A stretch of 64,000 bases of DNA from Candidatus Lloydbacteria bacterium RIFCSPHIGHO2_02_FULL_50_18 (GCA_001821395.1 MHLM01000014.1:32001-96000); one strand, 5' to 3'. Positions 30,001 through 36,000 are shown, counted from the stretch's first letter. A program made the numbers.

Positions 30001-33000
30001 AATCTGCGTGCCTACGGGCAGCGCGATCCGCTCGTCGAATACAAGCGCGAGGGATTACGTCTTTATCGCGAAATGGAGGACTCGATTGCGATGCATATCC
30101 TTGAAATGATCCCGCGCATCCAGGTTGATGCATTCGTAGCCGCAGAGGCGGAATTGAAAAAAGTACAGTCACAGATGACGCTTGCCGGCGGAGGGGTCAC
30201 CGGAAGTACTAGCGTGACTGCCGTTTCCAATGCGCCGAAAAATGCACAAGGAGAGGATATCGGACGAAATGATCCGTGTTTTTGCGGCAGCGGAAAGAAG
30301 TTCAAAAAATGCCATGGAGCGTAAGCTTCACTTCATCGTAGGGTCGGAAAATAAAGCGAAGGTGAATGCGGTCAGCGAAGTGCTGACGGAGTATCCGCAC
30401 CTTTCCGGCGCACGGGTCGACGGGGTACGGACGGGGTCGGGTGTTGCTGATCAGCCAATGTCGCTTGATGAGACGGTGAGCGGTGCGATGAATCGCGCGC
30501 GCAGCGCCTTTGGAGCCTGTGACTATAGTGTGGGGATCGAGTCGGGGCTGATGCACGTGCCGAATACCAAGAGCGGATATATGGATGTGTGTGCCGCCGC
30601 TATTTATGACGGAACGGAATTCCATCTCGGTCTTTCATCCGCCTGGGAATTTCCGGACAAAGCGATCATTCGCTCGATGGTCGATGAGGGGCTCGATATG
30701 AGTCAGGCGATCAATAAGATCGGACTTACAAAAAATCCGAATATCGGTTCGGAAGAAGGCGCGATCGGTATCGTCACGAAGGGGCGCATCGATCGAAAAG
30801 AATATACGAAGCAGGCGCTCCGTATGGCACTTATCCACATCGATCAGCCGTAAGAAAAAAGAACATGATAGATACGGGAATATTGAGCAGTCATTTATCT
30901 GGGTTATGGGTCACTTTCAGCTGGCAGATCGCTCTTTCGGTGTTTCTCGCGTATGTGATCGTGGACATGCTGTATGCAAAATACACTCTCTTGGTGAATC
31001 AATTAAGACCGGCGGGTGCTGCGACTGCGGGGGCACTGATGTATTTTCTCCTCGCGGTCGGCGTTTTGAATTATGCAAATAACGCGCTCTATCTTGTGCC
31101 GCTTGCGATCGGCTCGTGGGTCGGGACATATTTTACGGTCGAACGTGAGCGGAAAAAGTCGCTACGGAAATGATATAATTACCTTCATGTATAATCGTGC
31201 TTTGCTGACGTTGTTTTTTACGATATTCCTCGACATGGTAGGGGTGGGCATCCTCATCCCCGTCGTCCCCGTACTTTTTGCGAACCCGCTCTCTTCTCAT
31301 TATCTGCTTGCGCCCGGTACGCCGAAAGAAACGGGATACGTGCTGCTTGGGATCATGCTTGCGCTCTATTCATTCGGACAATTCTTTGCCGCACCAATCA
31401 TGGGGCAACTTTCGGACAGGTTCGGTCGGAAGAAACTGCTTTTAGTGTCGATCATGGGAACCGCGATCGGGCAGATGCTCTTCGGGGTAGGGATCCTTTT
31501 GAAATCGGTCATACTCCTTTTTGTCGTGCGACTTTTCACCGGGATATCGTCGGGGAATATCATCGTCTCACAGGCGGCCATCGCCGACATCACTACTCCT
31601 GAAAATCGTGCAAAGAATTTCGGATTGATCGGTGCGGCATTCGGTCTAGGGTTCATTGTCGGGCCATTTCTCGGAGGGAAACTCTCTGACCCGACTCTTG
31701 TTTCGTGGTTCAGTGCATCAACCCCGTTCTGGTTCGCGTCGGCGCTTTCGCTTCTCAATCTTATCTTTGTTTTCACTACATTCAAGGAAACGAATCATTT
31801 TTTGAAACGAGGTGAACCCTTGCGTGCAGGGAAGGCAATCACCAATATCGTGCGCGCCTTTAATGCGAAGCATCTGCGTCCGATATTCGTCACAAATTTT
31901 CTCTTTCAAATGGGTTTTTCCTTTTACGTAACCTTCGCAAGCGTTTTTCTCTATTATCGATTTGGTTTTACCGAGTCATCGATCGGGAATTATTTTGCCT
32001 ACGTGGGGCTCTGGATCGTATTTGCACAAGCGGTCGTGACGCGAGTCATGAGCAGGAAGTTCAAAGAGGTACAGATCATCCAGAACTCGCTCATCGCGGT
32101 GGGGCTGACGATCCTTGCGATCTTCCTCTCCCCGCAAGTGTCGTGGCTCTATTTCATTGTTCCGTTCTTCGCGATGGCGACCGGTCTATCGCAGGCGAAC
32201 ATGACCGGTCTGCTTTCGCGCTCAGCGGGACCCTCGATGCAGGGCGAAGTGCTCGGGGTGAATGGAAGCGTACTGGCGCTTGCAACGACGCTCCCGCCGC
32301 TCATTGCTGGGCCGATCGCCGCCAAGTTCGAACCATCGGCACCTCTCCTTGTTGCCTCGATCATTATCATTTGTAGTGGGCTCTATTTTATTGACCACAT
32401 TCAGCGAGAAAGAAATCGACTATCCTTATAGTACTGCTATCGCTTCTGTTTTTACTTAGCTTTGATACAATAAGTTGACGTTATTATTTTTTTATCTCCT
32501 TTTTCATATGATCTGGACGATTATTCTCATTGTGGTATCGGTCTATCTCTTGATAAGAGTTTCAGAATTGGCGAAGCGACTCGAAACACTTGAGTCAACA
32601 ATGGGGAACAATCTCAGGGGGGTAGTATCAACCGATGCCGTACTTCTGGCGCGTGAGTCCGCATATGTCAAAAGTGCGGATGCAAACATTGAGGCCTCTC
32701 TTGCTCCGTCACCTGCTCCGGCTCCTTCGTATACTCCGGTAGTTGTTGAATCGGGCGAAGAAAAGAGCGCACGATGGCTTGGGTGGGTGGGTGTCATCAT
32801 GCTCCTCCTCGGTGCTTCATTCTTTTTGAAGTACGCATTCGATAACGGCTATATCGGACCTATGGGGCAGGTGGCGATAGGCATCATCGCGGGGATCGTC
32901 AGCATCGGGATCGGACAGAAGCTTCGAGAAAAATATTTGAATTATAGCGACATCCTTCTTGGTGCGGGGGTCGGCATCCTCTATTTTTCGATCTATGCGG

Positions 33001-36000
33001 GTTTTGCCTTCTATAATCCCGCCGTCATTGCTCAGCCGGTTGCATTCATGCTCATGATACTGGTCACCGCTCTTTCGATGGTCATTGCGATCGCCGGTAA
33101 TACGATGGGTATCGCGATCATCGGCGTGGTCGGCGGATTCATGACACCGATGCTGCTATCGACGGGGGAGAATCATGAGGTGACGCTTTCACTCTATTTA
33201 CTGATGCTCAACGTCGGCGTGCTCAGTGTCTCATGGTTCACAAAGTGGGTAAAACTGAACTATCTGACATTCATTGGAACGGTGATGGTCTTTGGCGGGT
33301 GGATGGGTTCTTTTTACTGGCGAGACCCGGAGGGACAGCTGGCGCTGACATTCTTTTTCCTCACGATGTTCTTCCTGGTCTTTTTGGCCAATTCGATCCT
33401 GCATCATCTTACCCGAAAAGAGGCATCATCTTCAGGTGACCTTATCCTCATTTGCTTGAATGCTATGGGGTATATGGGGGTGTGTTACAGCATTCTGGAA
33501 CCTCAGCATCACGATGTGCTTGGATTCTTTGCTCTTGTTCTCGCAGCGCTCTATCTCATCATTTCGTACGTCGCATATGCGGCGGAAAAGCGTGACCGCA
33601 CGCTCAATCTCACCCTTCCCGGCATCGCCGTTGTATTCCTTTCGATCGCGATCCCGCTCCAGCTTACGGAATACTGGATCTCGATCGCATGGCTTGCCGA
33701 GTCGCTCGTCCTTGTCTACGTTGGGCTTTTGCTCAAGGAAAAGCCTATCCAGGTATTTGGATACATCGTCTTAGTACTCGGCATGCTGTCGATGTTGGGT
33801 GAGGTTGCAAAGATCAGAAATGTCAGCTTTAGCGACATTACTTCGGCGCTGACTCCGGTCATGAACATGGGATTCTTCTTGCTCCTCCTCGGAGTTGCAG
33901 TATTTTATGTACTTGCATGGTTCTATGGAAAAAATGAGGCAACGATGAGCGATCGCAAAAAGATCATTGCTGTTTTTCTCGTGCTTGCGAACTTGCTGAC
34001 AATCTATGCGTTTACCACTGAAGTAGCGCAGAAGTATTTTCAGGATATCGCACAAGTTCAGCATCAGGCGCAGCTTGATATTTCGAAGGAGGCACAATAC
34101 GGTGGGCAGAATACTGGGGGATACGTAAATTATGGAAACAATGCCACCTCTCTTCAAGTAGATGTACTGCAAAACAGAAGCAGTACGGTCACGACGGTGC
34201 TTTGGGCGCTCTACGCAACATTGTTGCTGGTGATCGGATTTATGCGTCGCATGCGCGTGTTGCGATTGTTCGGTCTCATCTTTTTCTTCGTCACTGCATG
34301 TAGGGTATTCATTTATGTATGGGAACAGGGACCGCTCTACCGAATATTCTCGACGATCGCCGTTGGTGTGATCGCGCTTAGTGCCGCGTTCCTCTATGCG
34401 AAATACAAGGACCGTATCAAGGAGGTTATTTATGACTAAACATATGAAAAAAACACTATTCGTTTTTTTTGCCGCACTCTTTTTCGCAGGTACGGTGTAT
34501 GCGGATTTTTCCGCGAGTGACTGGCAATTCATGCGCTCGGTCGACACTGCGAGTGTCAGCATGCTTAGTCAGCAAAGTGCCTATGTGAAGTTAGATGTTC
34601 CGCGCAGCGTGAGCACGCTCGCGCGTGCCGATCTTGCTGATCTCCGTATCGTGTCAAACGGCATGGAGGAAGTTCCGTATCAGCTTGTGATCGAGGACGA
34701 AAGTGTACGCAGTGAATACGTACAAAGTACACTTCGCGATCTTTCGTCGAACGCGGGTGAGACAATGTTCATCCTCGACGTCGGTGCCGCGGGGACCATC
34801 CACGATCACCTGGTAATCGATACGCTCTCAAAGAACTTTAAGCGACCAAAATCTCGGTGTATGCATCAGATACTTCATTGAATCATGGCGGTGAGGGGTG
34901 GAGACTCTTGAGCGACAAAAATTATCTTTACAATTACGCCGATCCCACACTCGGTTTTGATGCGGGGAATAAAGATGTGTATTATCCCGAGAGCACGTCA
35001 CGCTACCTCCGCGTTGTTATCGGAAAGGGTGAGGGAAGTGAGGTGGTCGTGCGGGGAGCGAGGGTGTTGCGCATTCTGGAGCGCGACGCACGAAAGAATC
35101 GCACCACGGAACGGGCCATTCTCAGCCAAAATGCGAAAGAACAATCAACGGAGATAACGATCGATCTCGGTGGTTCCGGTGTGTCAACAAGAAAGATCAC
35201 TCTTGCTACCGGTGATGTGCAAAATTTCAGTCGTAGGGTCGTGGTCCAGGGGAGCAATGATGCGGGATCGTGGATGATGCTTTCACAGGGTTACGTCTTT
35301 CAGTTGAATACGCCGCTCTTTGTCGGAAGCGATCTCTCGGTCTCCTATCCCGAAAGTGCGCAACGCTATATACGCGTCATCGTGTTTGACGAAGATAACA
35401 AGCCGATCGATTGGAATGATACCGTGGCGATGGAGGGTGTAGCGCGCTCGCTCGTATTCGCCGTCACCCCGGGGGCAACCTATGCGCTCTATTATGGGAA
35501 TCCATTAGCACAGAGACCAGAGTATGATATCGCACGCTACTTCAAGTATTTTGAAGGCGTGTCGCTTTCGGAAGCGCTCATGGGCGAAGAGGAGGTGAAT
35601 GCGGCATACGTTCCGCCCAAGGCTCCTGTTCTCCCGTTTTCCGAGCGAAACAAGAACGTGATCAATGGTACGCTGATATTGCTTGTCGCACTGGTGAGTT
35701 TCTTGCTTGTTGTGTACCTGAAGAAGCTTAAGCTCATGAAACCAGAGGAATAGCTTCCATCAAAGGACTCTGTTTTGTATACTATGGTCATATGTTGAAA
35801 CCGCAGATCAGCGAATTGGTGTTTTTTTGGATAATGCTTGGCATCGTCGGGGCGTTCACGTTCGTCATTATGAGCCCATACCTTACTCCACTTTTTCTGG
35901 CCGGGGTATTTGCCATACTCTTCTCTCCGATACATCGCTATCTACTGAAACGAACTCATGGAAATGAGGGGAGAGCGGCATTGTTCACAGTGCTCGTTGT

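What the first reader, a model, noticed from the sequence alone, without database searches (positions are those of the whole stretch)
32475..35753. DUF2339 polytopic membrane protein plus DUF3999-like secreted partner (overlapping genes), followed by AI-2E transporter
The large DUF2339-type protein (TM, coiled coil, P-rich linker, about 18 TMs) overlaps by 8 nt a gene for a signal-peptide protein with a C-terminal TM whose size and organisation fit DUF3999. To my knowledge this pair co-occurs widely in other genomes, and its function is unknown. Here the partner is split by a frameshift.
Basis: partly seen in the sequence, partly recalled or inferred. Interest (0 to 1): 0.5.

Follow-up and report, generated by a model that had tools for sequence, protein, structure and literature searches.

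The report
Arc3-type membrane defence pair, partner broken
This is a Candidatus Lloydbacteria (CPR/Patescibacteria) copy of the published Arc3A/Arc3B gene pair, which in Pseudomonas protects membranes against injected phospholipase toxins, and here the partner gene is broken by a genuine 2-base insertion, so it is a fairly ordinary member of a known system.

Summary
Window 32508 (or TTG 32475)-34439 encodes a DUF2339 protein (Pfam PF10101, E=4e-74). A DUF3999 gene overlaps it by 8 nt, has its own AGGAGG ribosome-binding site, and is split into 149-aa and 298-aa ORFs. An AI-2E transporter gene follows.

The frameshift is a 2-nt insertion (AA, about 34848-34849). It is the only indel against an intact 85.5%-identical orthologue, and it is identical in six independent assemblies. 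The joined 440-aa product passes the DUF3999 threshold (48.6 vs 30 bits).

The pair is strongly conserved. In 25 of 25 evaluable loci DUF2339 sits directly upstream of DUF3999, while all other neighbours differ. Three natural DUF2339-DUF3999 fusion proteins also exist.

The function is no longer unknown. This is the Arc3A/Arc3B module of Ting et al. 2022 (eLife). In P. aeruginosa it defends against T6SS phospholipases and prevents lysophospholipid build-up. The molecular mechanism is still unsolved.

New details found here:
- Arc3A is predicted as a 19-TM, N-out/C-in helical-repeat protein with no solved structural relative.
- Arc3B has two tandem discoidin/CBM32-like domains.
- The Arc3B subfamily occurs in monoderm lineages (Patescibacteria, Dehalococcoidia) with a cleavable signal peptide instead of a lipobox.

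I read arc3B as recently pseudogenised and arc3A as intact.

The parts
32508..34439 (+). arc3A-like gene: DUF2339 polytopic membrane protein, 643 aa from ATG 32508 (the longest ORF starts at TTG 32475)
   Evidence: Pfam PF10101 E=4e-74. It is called as 643 aa in six assemblies. The orthologue P0077 aligns from the ATG. dN/dS of the 3' part against the orthologue is 0.13.
32511..32603 (+). N-terminal TM helix (residues 2-22) continuing into a short amphipathic helix (to residue 32)
   Evidence: AF2 helix 2-32 and hydropathy. The architecture is conserved in relatives.
32604..32753 (+). Disordered Pro/Ser/Ala-rich linker (residues 33-82), predicted to be cytoplasmic
   Evidence: pLDDT below 50 for residues 35-71. 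The loop holds 7 K+R and fits the positive-inside pattern.
32754..34433 (+). Core of 18 transmembrane helices (residues 83-642) with a helical-hairpin repeat architecture and a cytoplasmic C-terminus
34020..34187 (+). Long Q/N-rich extracytoplasmic loop between TM16 and TM17 (residues 505-560)
   Evidence: Helix boundaries and loop charge count.
34420..34425 (+). Shine-Dalgarno AGGAGG for arc3B, inside the end of arc3A and 6 nt before ATG 34432
   Evidence: Read directly from the sequence.
34432..34881 (+). arc3B-like gene, 5' fragment (149-aa ORF). It holds the signal peptide (34432-34503), the N-domain and the start of discoidin-like repeat 1. From about 34852 it is an out-of-frame tail ending at TGA 34879-81.
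   Evidence: DUF3999 profile positions 11-68, 20.4 bits. It aligns with intact homologues up to ...SKNFKRP. dN/dS is 0.05.
34847..34852 (+). Frameshift site: a 2-nt insertion (AA, placed at 34848-34849 by the alignment) inside the conserved NFKRxVxVxxSD strand
   Evidence: It is the only indel in the whole gene against the intact orthologue L007. The site is identical in six assemblies. All 13 aligned homologues are in frame here.
34851..35753 (+). arc3B-like gene, 3' fragment in the -1 frame (frame open from 34842; the called ORF starts at GTG 34857, 298 aa). It holds the rest of discoidin-like repeat 1 (whole repeat about 34744-35090), repeat 2 (about 35133-35465) and the C-terminal TM anchor (35652-35735).
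35792..36841 (+). AI-2E family transporter gene. It is a neighbour, not part of the conserved module.
   Evidence: PF01594 E=1.3e-51. It is syntenic only in Lloydbacteria-like loci L008-L012 and L034, and absent next to the pair in Taylorbacteria, Saccharibacteria, Dehalococcoidia and the four distant loci.
31190..32431 (+). MFS (Tet/DHA1-like) transporter gene. It is a neighbour, not part of the module, and none of the 25 families listed for it is LplT.
   Evidence: PF07690 E=1e-44. The best NCBIfam matches are Tet-family efflux pumps, all below their cutoffs. Synteny is limited to close relatives.

Best explanation
The locus is an Arc3-type two-gene membrane module in a Candidatus Lloydbacteria (Patescibacteria/CPR) genome.

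Arc3A. This is a 643-aa DUF2339 protein. It has one N-terminal TM, a cytoplasmic Pro-rich linker and 18 further TM helices built from helical-hairpin repeats. It has no enzyme-like or transporter-like fold.

Likely mechanism, inferred by homology with P. aeruginosa Arc3A. The dense helical array probably acts inside the cytoplasmic membrane. It would keep detergent-like lysophospholipids from accumulating, or blunt phospholipase attack, by binding or sequestering these lipids or the enzyme.

Arc3B. This is a DUF3999 protein that is translationally coupled to Arc3A through an 8-nt overlap and its own SD. It is a type-I membrane protein. It has a cleaved signal peptide, an N-domain, two tandem discoidin/CBM32-like beta-sandwich domains outside the cell, and a C-terminal TM anchor. 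It is inferred to dock on Arc3A as an accessory, ligand- or surface-binding subunit.

State in this lineage. arc3B carries a 2-nt insertion in the core strand of the first discoidin repeat. What remains is a truncated secreted stub and a C-terminal piece with no signal peptide. Arc3B is therefore most likely non-functional (a recent pseudogene), while arc3A stays intact and is presumably still active on its own.

Shown here: family membership, anatomy, conservation of the pair, and the reality and position of the frameshift.

Inferred: the lipid-protective function in this organism, the Arc3A-Arc3B contact, and the loss of Arc3B function.
For: - Family: PF10101 at 251 bits and joined PF13163 at 48.6 bits. 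These are the same Pfam criteria that Ting et al. used to define Arc3A and Arc3B homologues.
- Published function: Arc3A is the gene most critical for Tle3 defence. A delta-arc3A mutant accumulates LPE and MLCL. Divergent Arc3A homologues complement the mutant, Arc3B contributes little, and the two proteins co-immunoprecipitate (PMC8926400). Arc3A also protects against TseL and Tle1.
- Module conservation: 25 of 25 evaluable loci have DUF2339 then DUF3999, abutting or overlapping on the same strand, with unrelated surroundings. Fusions P0123, P0125 and P0132 have DUF2339 at the N-terminus and DUF3999 at the C-terminus.
- Topology: K+R is 28 against 7, which gives a cytoplasmic Arc3A C-terminus. 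This matches what the fusions require.
- Frameshift: it is the single 2-nt indel against the intact orthologue. It is identical in six assemblies made with different assemblers. More than 60 homologues of about 430-460 aa are intact, and 13 of them aligned across the site are in frame there.
- No recoding signals: there is no X XXY YYZ heptamer and the downstream fold has z=0.16.
- No other frameshift: none was found among four overlapping-ORF pairs elsewhere in the window.
Against: - No experiment exists for any Patescibacteria or other monoderm Arc3 protein.
- Both arc3B halves show strong purifying selection over the divergence from the orthologue (dN/dS 0.05 and 0.14) and carry no second lesion. 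This fits a very recent inactivation. It equally fits continued expression by an unrecognised mechanism.
- A single Lys-tRNA slip on CCA AAA T would restore the frame.
- The six assemblies may largely derive from one aquifer population, so fixation across independent populations is not shown.
- T6SS attack presupposes particular neighbours. Its relevance for an ultrasmall epibiont is unknown.
Confidence: 0.7

Rival explanations
1. In Patescibacteria the module is mainly a housekeeping device rather than a defence against injected toxins. It would handle lysolipids, either by tolerating or organising a lysolipid-rich membrane or by helping to acquire lysolipids from host cells. Arc3B's discoidin-like domains would bind host or environmental lipid or glycan.
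For: - Patescibacteria are monoderm and largely lack lipid biosynthesis. Their lipid uptake route is unknown, and lysolipids from neighbours are the suggested source (PMC11665869).
- Lysolipids are enriched in CPR cell fractions (PMC7242380).
- DUF2339/DUF3999 pairs were found in Lloyd-, Taylor-, Saccharibacteria and other Parcubacteria.
- A 32-TM DUF2339 protein was noted in Gracilibacteria (PMC6851277).
- The one biochemical phenotype known for Arc3A concerns lysophospholipid levels.
Against: - There is no direct evidence.
- The same subfamily is at least as common in Dehalococcoidia with 3-4 Mb genomes and also occurs in Acidobacteria. It is therefore not specific to lipid auxotrophs.
- In P. 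aeruginosa, Arc3A did not detectably alter LPE stability in the absence of antagonism.
- Loss of arc3B here argues that the ectodomain is dispensable in this lineage.
Confidence: 0.2
2. The frameshift is bypassed in vivo, so a full-length functional Arc3B is still made. The route would be a -1 slip of Lys-tRNA on CCA-AAA-T, or some other recoding.
For: - A -1 slip of the AAA codon (34849-51) onto 34848-50 re-pairs perfectly. It yields KRPK-ISVYASD, only one residue longer than the orthologues.
- Both halves have low dN/dS and no further lesion.
Against: - There is no canonical X XXY YYZ heptamer and no upstream SD-like stimulator.
- The downstream RNA folds no better than shuffled sequence (z=0.16).
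- The run is only four As, too short for transcriptional slippage.
- The insertion is confined to this lineage, and the 13 homologues aligned across the site are in frame there.
Confidence: 0.07
3. The frameshift is a sequencing or assembly artefact and the real gene is intact.
For: - The six assemblies may reuse the same aquifer read sets.
- A related genome has a scaffold gap at the same spot, which hints at a region that is hard to assemble.
Against: - The 61-nt site is identical in ENA (MEGAHIT), NCBI, JGI and Logan assemblies, including a strain variant (L006) that differs elsewhere.
- The change is a 2-nt insertion in a run of only 2-4 As, which is not a typical Illumina error.
- No other frameshift appeared among the overlapping ORF pairs checked in the window.
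Confidence: 0.06
4. The pair is a binding-protein-dependent transporter or a surface adhesin complex, unrelated to lipid damage. DUF2339 would be the permease or anchor and DUF3999 the substrate- or host-binding subunit.
For: - The pair combines a polytopic membrane protein with an extracytoplasmic CBM32/discoidin-like partner.
- The neighbours here are transporters (MFS, AI-2E).
Against: - Arc3A has no structural or sequence similarity to any solved transporter.
- No ATPase or other coupling gene is conserved next to the pair, and neighbours differ in every distant locus.
- The genetics in Pseudomonas point to phospholipase defence.
Confidence: 0.07

Closest known systems
Arc3A/Arc3B (PA5114/PA5113) of Pseudomonas aeruginosa, antagonism resistance cluster 3 (Ting et al. 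2022, eLife; PMC8926400)
   Same: - The Pfam families are the same (PF10101 and PF13163).
- The gene order is the same (A then B, same strand, abutting).
- Arc3A is a very TM-rich protein without catalytic motifs.
- Arc3B has a C-terminal TM helix.
- The published observation that Arc3A can act without Arc3B fits an intact arc3A next to a broken arc3B here.
   Different: - Arc3A here has about 19 TMs and 643 aa, against 35 predicted TMs in P. aeruginosa. It also has an N-terminal TM plus a Pro-rich cytoplasmic linker.
- Arc3B here has a cleavable SPase-I type signal (AxA|DF) and no lipobox. It sits in a monoderm organism, so it cannot bridge to an outer membrane as proposed for PA5113. [quoted passage not shown]
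- There is no Gac/Rsm control and no estA or aas neighbour.
- arc3B is frameshifted.
LplT-Aas lysophospholipid flippase/acyltransferase repair system
   Same: It deals with the same class of damage (lysophospholipids made by phospholipase A). It acts additively with Arc3A in P. aeruginosa.
   Different: - There is no homology.
- LplT is an MFS flippase coupled to an acyltransferase.
- The MFS gene next to this locus is Tet/DHA1-like, and no LplT family is among the 25 best NCBIfam matches listed for it.
- Arc3A did not contribute to PE regeneration from LPE.
CBM32 / F5-8 type C (discoidin) domains, e.g. AlyQ CBM32 (5xnr, 7d2a), C. perfringens GH84C CBM32 (2j1a), factor V C2 (1czs)
   Different: - Sequence identity is only 10-16%.
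- The Pfam F5_F8_type_C score is below threshold (17-18 against 28.2 bits).
- No catalytic module is attached.
- The ligand is unknown.
- Two copies arose by internal duplication and carry their own NFxR...W...YPESxxRYxR signature.
Designed alpha/alpha helical-repeat toroids (6xr1, 7rdr) as a purely geometric comparison for Arc3A
   Different: - The TM-scores are only 0.25-0.37 and the E-values are not significant.
- They are soluble designed proteins, so there is no evolutionary or functional meaning.
- Model coordinates could not be inspected, so ring closure is untested.

Membership tests
DUF2339 (PF10101) / Arc3A family | Match to the Pfam PF10101 profile above the gathering score (the criterion used by Ting et al. 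for Arc3A homologues) | tested here: met
   251 bits against a 33.6 cutoff, E=4e-74.
DUF2339 (PF10101) / Arc3A family | An unusually large, dense array of transmembrane helices with no recognisable catalytic or transporter domain | tested here: met
   There are 19 helices in the AF2 model and by hydropathy. The only other family matches are two sub-threshold ones, DUF1514 (13.4 vs 25 bits) and the SCO7613 C-terminal domain (19.2 vs 45 bits). There is no PDB relative by sequence or fold.
DUF2339 (PF10101) / Arc3A family | Protects against phospholipase toxins and prevents lysophospholipid accumulation | not testable with these tools
   This is known only from P. aeruginosa and P. protegens genetics and lipidomics.
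DUF3999 (PF13163) / Arc3B family | Match to PF13163 above the gathering score, encoded next to an Arc3A-like gene | tested here: met
   The joined 440-aa product scores 48.6 bits against 30. As encoded, the fragments score 20.4 and 30.0 bits. The gene lies immediately downstream of DUF2339 with an 8-nt overlap.
DUF3999 (PF13163) / Arc3B family | Intact reading frame of about 430-460 aa | tested here: not met
   A 2-nt insertion at about 34848-49 splits the gene into 149-aa and 298-aa ORFs. Homologues are 430-460 aa.
DUF3999 (PF13163) / Arc3B family | N-terminal lipoprotein signal giving outer-membrane anchoring (as predicted for PA5113) | tested here: not met
   There is no Cys in the signal peptide, and the cleavage motif is VYA|DF. 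'A-D-F' (or a closely similar A-[DEQN]-[FWY] motif, as the search pattern allowed) is found in most of the 76 homologues, and only 3 have a lipobox-like string. The host phylum is monoderm (PMC11665869).
DUF3999 (PF13163) / Arc3B family | C-terminal transmembrane helix | tested here: met
   Residues 408-435 are hydrophobic and helical.
DUF3999 (PF13163) / Arc3B family | Stable physical association with Arc3A | not testable with these tools
   Support is indirect only: natural fusions P0123, P0125 and P0132 and 25 of 25 adjacency. Co-IP exists only for P. aeruginosa. No multimer prediction tool was available.
F5/8 type C (discoidin, PF00754) / CBM32 | Sequence match above the Pfam threshold | tested here: not met
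   17.0-17.9 bits against a 28.2 cutoff.
F5/8 type C (discoidin, PF00754) / CBM32 | Galactose-binding-like beta-sandwich fold | tested here: met
Programmed -1 ribosomal frameshift site | X XXY YYZ slippery heptamer, a downstream stimulatory structure, and conservation of the shift in relatives | tested here: not met
   The site is A CCA AAA T. The downstream fold has z=0.16. Orthologues are in frame.
AI-2E transporter (PF01594), the neighbouring gene | Pfam match above threshold | tested here: met
   176 bits against 34.3. It is not conserved with the pair outside close relatives.

The most novel reading that the evidence does not exclude
Arc3A/Arc3B is an ancient module of monoderm, lipid-scavenging bacteria as well as of diderms. 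In Patescibacteria it would serve lysolipid handling, meaning tolerance, organisation or acquisition of host-derived lysolipids. That would give a first candidate for the unknown lipid-uptake or lipid-homeostasis machinery of CPR bacteria. It would also show that Arc3B works as a cytoplasmic-membrane-anchored discoidin ectodomain, without any outer-membrane tether.
Probability: 0.2. Interest if true: 0.6.

Novelty: new member of a known kind. Interest (0 to 1): 0.3.

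Why it matters
In itself this matters little. It is one more copy of a published, widely distributed two-gene module, and the accessory gene is broken.

Three side results are useful to people working on Arc3.

1. Arc3B-type proteins are not confined to Gram-negative phyla. A large subfamily lives in monoderm Patescibacteria and Dehalococcoidia and uses a cleaved signal peptide rather than a lipid anchor. This argues against outer-membrane tethering as essential to the mechanism.
2. Natural Arc3A-Arc3B fusions and the charge pattern fix the topology as Arc3A C-terminus inside and Arc3B ectodomain outside. High-confidence models give Arc3B two discoidin-like domains and give Arc3A a helical-repeat membrane fold with no solved relative.
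3. An intact arc3A beside a dead arc3B is a natural experiment that agrees with the published finding that Arc3A acts on its own.

The link to lysolipid-rich, lipid-auxotrophic CPR bacteria is speculative but testable.

Tried and rejected
- Genome scan with the 71-sequence alignment A2 failed because no stretch was conserved enough. It was repeated with the 14-sequence alignment A1.
- Programmed frameshifting was rejected for lack of a heptamer, structure or conservation.
- P0040 (a 284-aa C-terminal-only DUF3999 in Parcubacteria GW2011_GWA2_47_7) looked like a second independent split. The break turned out to be a 119-N scaffold gap, not a frameshift.
- The strain variant L006 was examined for signs of relaxed selection. 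Its 10 SNPs are clustered in 56 nt of a variable loop (4 synonymous sites and 4 changed codons), so it is uninformative.
- I tested whether the upstream MFS is an LplT-type lysophospholipid flippase, which would have tied the locus to lipid repair. Its best matches are Tet/DHA1-type efflux pumps.
- I tested whether MFS and AI-2E belong to the module. They are syntenic only in close relatives.
- Antisense ORFs inside the locus (33774-34562, 35540-35935, 32546-32800) have no family match.
- Four other overlapping ORF pairs in the window were checked for further frameshifts. All are distinct genes.
- Sequence search of the PDB with the DUF2339 profile found nothing.
- Promoter and terminator scans were at background level.
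- Rfam and tRNA scans of the window were empty.

Full report
**What is in the sequence**

The window region 30-39 kb is a run of same-strand genes:
- SecA
- an ITPase-like NTPase
- a 102-aa membrane protein
- an MFS transporter
- a DUF2339 protein
- a split DUF3999 protein
- an AI-2E transporter
- an M3 oligopeptidase

The identical DNA occurs in NCBI assembly GCA_001818945.1 (MHLI01000006.1). The 298-aa fragment is named there as a protein of 'Candidatus Lloydbacteria bacterium RIFCSPHIGHO2_01_FULL_...'. That places it in Parcubacteria within Patescibacteria/CPR.

**Check of the observation**

DUF2339:
- The protein matches PF10101 at E=4e-74.
- Gene callers and the 87%-identical orthologue P0077 start at ATG 32508 (643 aa), not at the TTG at 32475 that begins the longest ORF.

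Partner gene start:
- The partner starts at ATG 34432, 6 nt after an AGGAGG.
- It overlaps the DUF2339 stop (TAA 34437-39) by 8 nt. This is a classic translational-coupling arrangement.

Partner gene split:
- It is split into a 149-aa ORF (34432-34881) and a 298-aa ORF (34857-35753). These match the front and the back of the DUF3999 profile.
- Joined by a -1 shift, the 440-aa product passes the PF13163 threshold (48.6 vs 30 bits). It also has the family's usual length.

AI-2E: the assignment is confirmed (E=1.3e-51).

**The frameshift**

Evidence that it is real:
- Intact homologues of about 430-460 aa were found in abundance. They include P0001 at 88% identity.
- A DNA alignment with the P0001 gene (L007, 85.5% identical) shows exactly one indel in 1.3 kb. 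It is two extra bases (AA, about 34848-49) inside AAGCGACC[AA]AATCTCGGTGTAT. This region encodes the conserved NFKRPVxVYASD strand.
- The 61-nt site is identical in six assemblies from ENA, NCBI, JGI and Logan. One of them is a strain variant that differs elsewhere. An assembler artefact is therefore unlikely.
- Four other overlapping-ORF pairs in the window are simply separate genes, so the contig is not generally frameshift-prone.

Evidence on recoding:
- There is no canonical slippery heptamer.
- The downstream RNA folds no better than shuffled sequence (z=0.16).
- The insertion is lineage-specific.

Consequences for the protein:
- The N-fragment would be a signal peptide plus a truncated domain.
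- The C-fragment lacks a signal peptide.

Selection:
- dN/dS against the orthologue is 0.05 for the N-part and 0.14 for the C-part. The flanking genes give 0.13 and 0.08.
- The gene was therefore under purifying selection for most of the divergence, and the lesion is recent or, less likely, tolerated.

**Is the pair conserved?**

- A scan of one genome per species with the DUF3999 alignment returned 22 loci. They comprise Lloyd-, Taylor- and Saccharibacteria, unclassified CPR-like MAGs, 13 Dehalococcoidia/Chloroflexi and one Bryobacteraceae.
- HMMs built here place a DUF2339 gene immediately upstream on the same strand in all 21 loci where upstream DNA exists.
- Starting instead from four distant DUF2339 proteins (28-37% identity), each has a DUF3999 gene directly downstream. 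Three of the four overlap it by 4 nt, and the surrounding genes are entirely different.
- Three proteins of 1053-1096 aa are fusions with DUF2339 at the N-terminus and DUF3999 at the C-terminus.
- The MFS and AI-2E neighbours are shared only with close Lloydbacteria-like relatives.

The conserved unit is the two-gene module.

**What is known about it**

The pair is not uncharacterised.
- Ting et al. 2022 named PA5114 (PF10101) Arc3A and PA5113 (PF13163) Arc3B (PMC8926400).
- arc3A is the P. aeruginosa gene most critical for surviving the B. thailandensis T6SS phospholipase Tle3.
- Without it, lysophosphatidylethanolamine and monolysocardiolipin accumulate.
- Divergent Arc3A homologues complement the mutant.
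- Arc3B co-purifies with Arc3A but contributes little.
- The pathway is independent of LplT/Aas recycling.
- A later screen confirmed Arc3A protection against V. cholerae TseL and A. baylyi Tle1 (bioRxiv 10.1101/2024.10.26.620397).
- The molecular mechanism remains open. The authors suggest sequestration of lysophospholipids or interference with the phospholipase.

**Anatomy derived here: Arc3A**

- The model has pLDDT 82.8.
- It has an N-terminal TM helix that continues as a short amphipathic helix.
- A disordered Pro-rich linker follows (residues 35-71).
- The core has 18 further helices.
- Loop charges (K+R 28 vs 7) give N-out, a cytoplasmic linker and C-in. This is the orientation the natural fusions need so that the Arc3B signal sequence can export its ectodomain.
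- Parts of the core are internally repeated. Longer homologues duplicate the C-terminal block. This explains the variable TM counts reported for the family.

**Anatomy derived here: Arc3B**

- The model of the joined protein has pLDDT 90.8.
- It has a signal peptide, an N-domain, two tandem beta-sandwich domains and a C-terminal TM.
- The two domains are a clear internal duplication (hhalign 99.7%, E=1.5e-26) with a shared NFxR...W...YPESxxRYxR signature.
- The frameshift cuts the first repeat.

**Differences from the Pseudomonas paradigm**

- The eLife paper predicts that Arc3B is an outer-membrane lipoprotein spanning the periplasm. [quoted passage not shown]
- Here the host phylum is monoderm (PMC11665869).
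- The signal peptide has no cysteine.
- The mature N-terminus 'DF' after an AxA site is conserved across most of the 76 homologues. That includes those from Dehalococcoidia genomes.
- In this subfamily the ectodomain must therefore be tethered only to the cytoplasmic membrane.

**Most likely mechanism**

By homology I take Arc3A to act within the membrane to prevent lysophospholipid accumulation or phospholipase damage. Arc3B would be an accessory extracytoplasmic binding subunit. In this lineage Arc3B is probably lost, which fits the published dispensability of Arc3B.

A more novel but unproven reading concerns the lipid biology of CPR bacteria:
- They lack lipid synthesis.
- They are reported to be rich in lysolipids and to obtain them from neighbours.
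- Their lipid uptake route is unknown (PMC7242380; PMC11665869).

In that setting, Arc3A may serve routine lysolipid handling. The same subfamily is abundant in Dehalococcoidia with 3-4 Mb genomes, which tempers this idea.

**Verdict**

Only the 'function unknown' clause is outdated. This is a new, partly decayed member of a known system, with modest added value for understanding Arc3 topology and distribution.

Noticed in passing
L034 3282-4772 (Parcubacteria GW2011_GWA2_47_7, LCOM01000011.1): A related genome with the same MFS-DUF2339-DUF3999-AI-2E-M3 synteny has a 119-N scaffold gap in its DUF3999 gene. The gap lies just before PNFRRQVSIYSSD, the same spot as the window's frameshift. Its M3 peptidase is also called in two pieces. 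This could be coincidence or a locally hard-to-assemble or variable site.
   Followed up: partly
L029 7935-9262 and L014 5433-7939 (Dehalococcoidia MAGs): In L029 the DUF3999 gene is split into two ORFs at profile position about 280. In L014 the DUF2339 gene is split into two ORFs. It was not determined whether these are real lesions or consensus errors of the assemblies.
   Followed up: no
window 35465-35520 (compared with L006): The only differences between the window and strain variant L006 over 4.7 kb are 10 SNPs packed into 56 nt. They fall in a variable loop of Arc3B (GNPLAQRPE). This looks like a short recombination tract or a strain-mixed assembly rather than scattered drift.
   Followed up: partly
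P0123, P0125, P0132 (proteins): These are natural single-chain fusions of 1053-1096 aa, with DUF2339 at the N-terminus and DUF3999 at the C-terminus. They would make good targets for single-chain structure prediction of the complex.
   Followed up: partly
L010 2280-4739, L012 5225-7678; window 33675-33818 vs 34188-34331: Longer DUF2339 homologues (about 770-820 aa) repeat the C-terminal profile block 389-641. Within the window protein, residues ~390-437 resemble ~561-608 (hhalign 95%). TM number in this family seems to vary by tandem duplication of helical modules.
   Followed up: partly
window 32754-34433 (Arc3A model m1f4b6b3bd4a2): The best PDB matches of the 18-helix core are designed circular or toroidal alpha/alpha repeat proteins, including a 9-repeat toroid (6xr1). 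This hints at a ring of nine hairpins, but the TM-scores are only about 0.3 and the coordinates could not be inspected.
   Followed up: no
window 30865-31173: A 102-aa predicted membrane protein has no Pfam or NCBIfam match. It is conserved next to the MFS gene in Lloydbacteria-like relatives (L008, L010, L012).
   Followed up: partly
window 1-64000: There is no tRNA gene and no Rfam family hit at gathering threshold anywhere in the 64 kb. Genes lie almost all on the + strand, with positive GC skew throughout.
   Followed up: no
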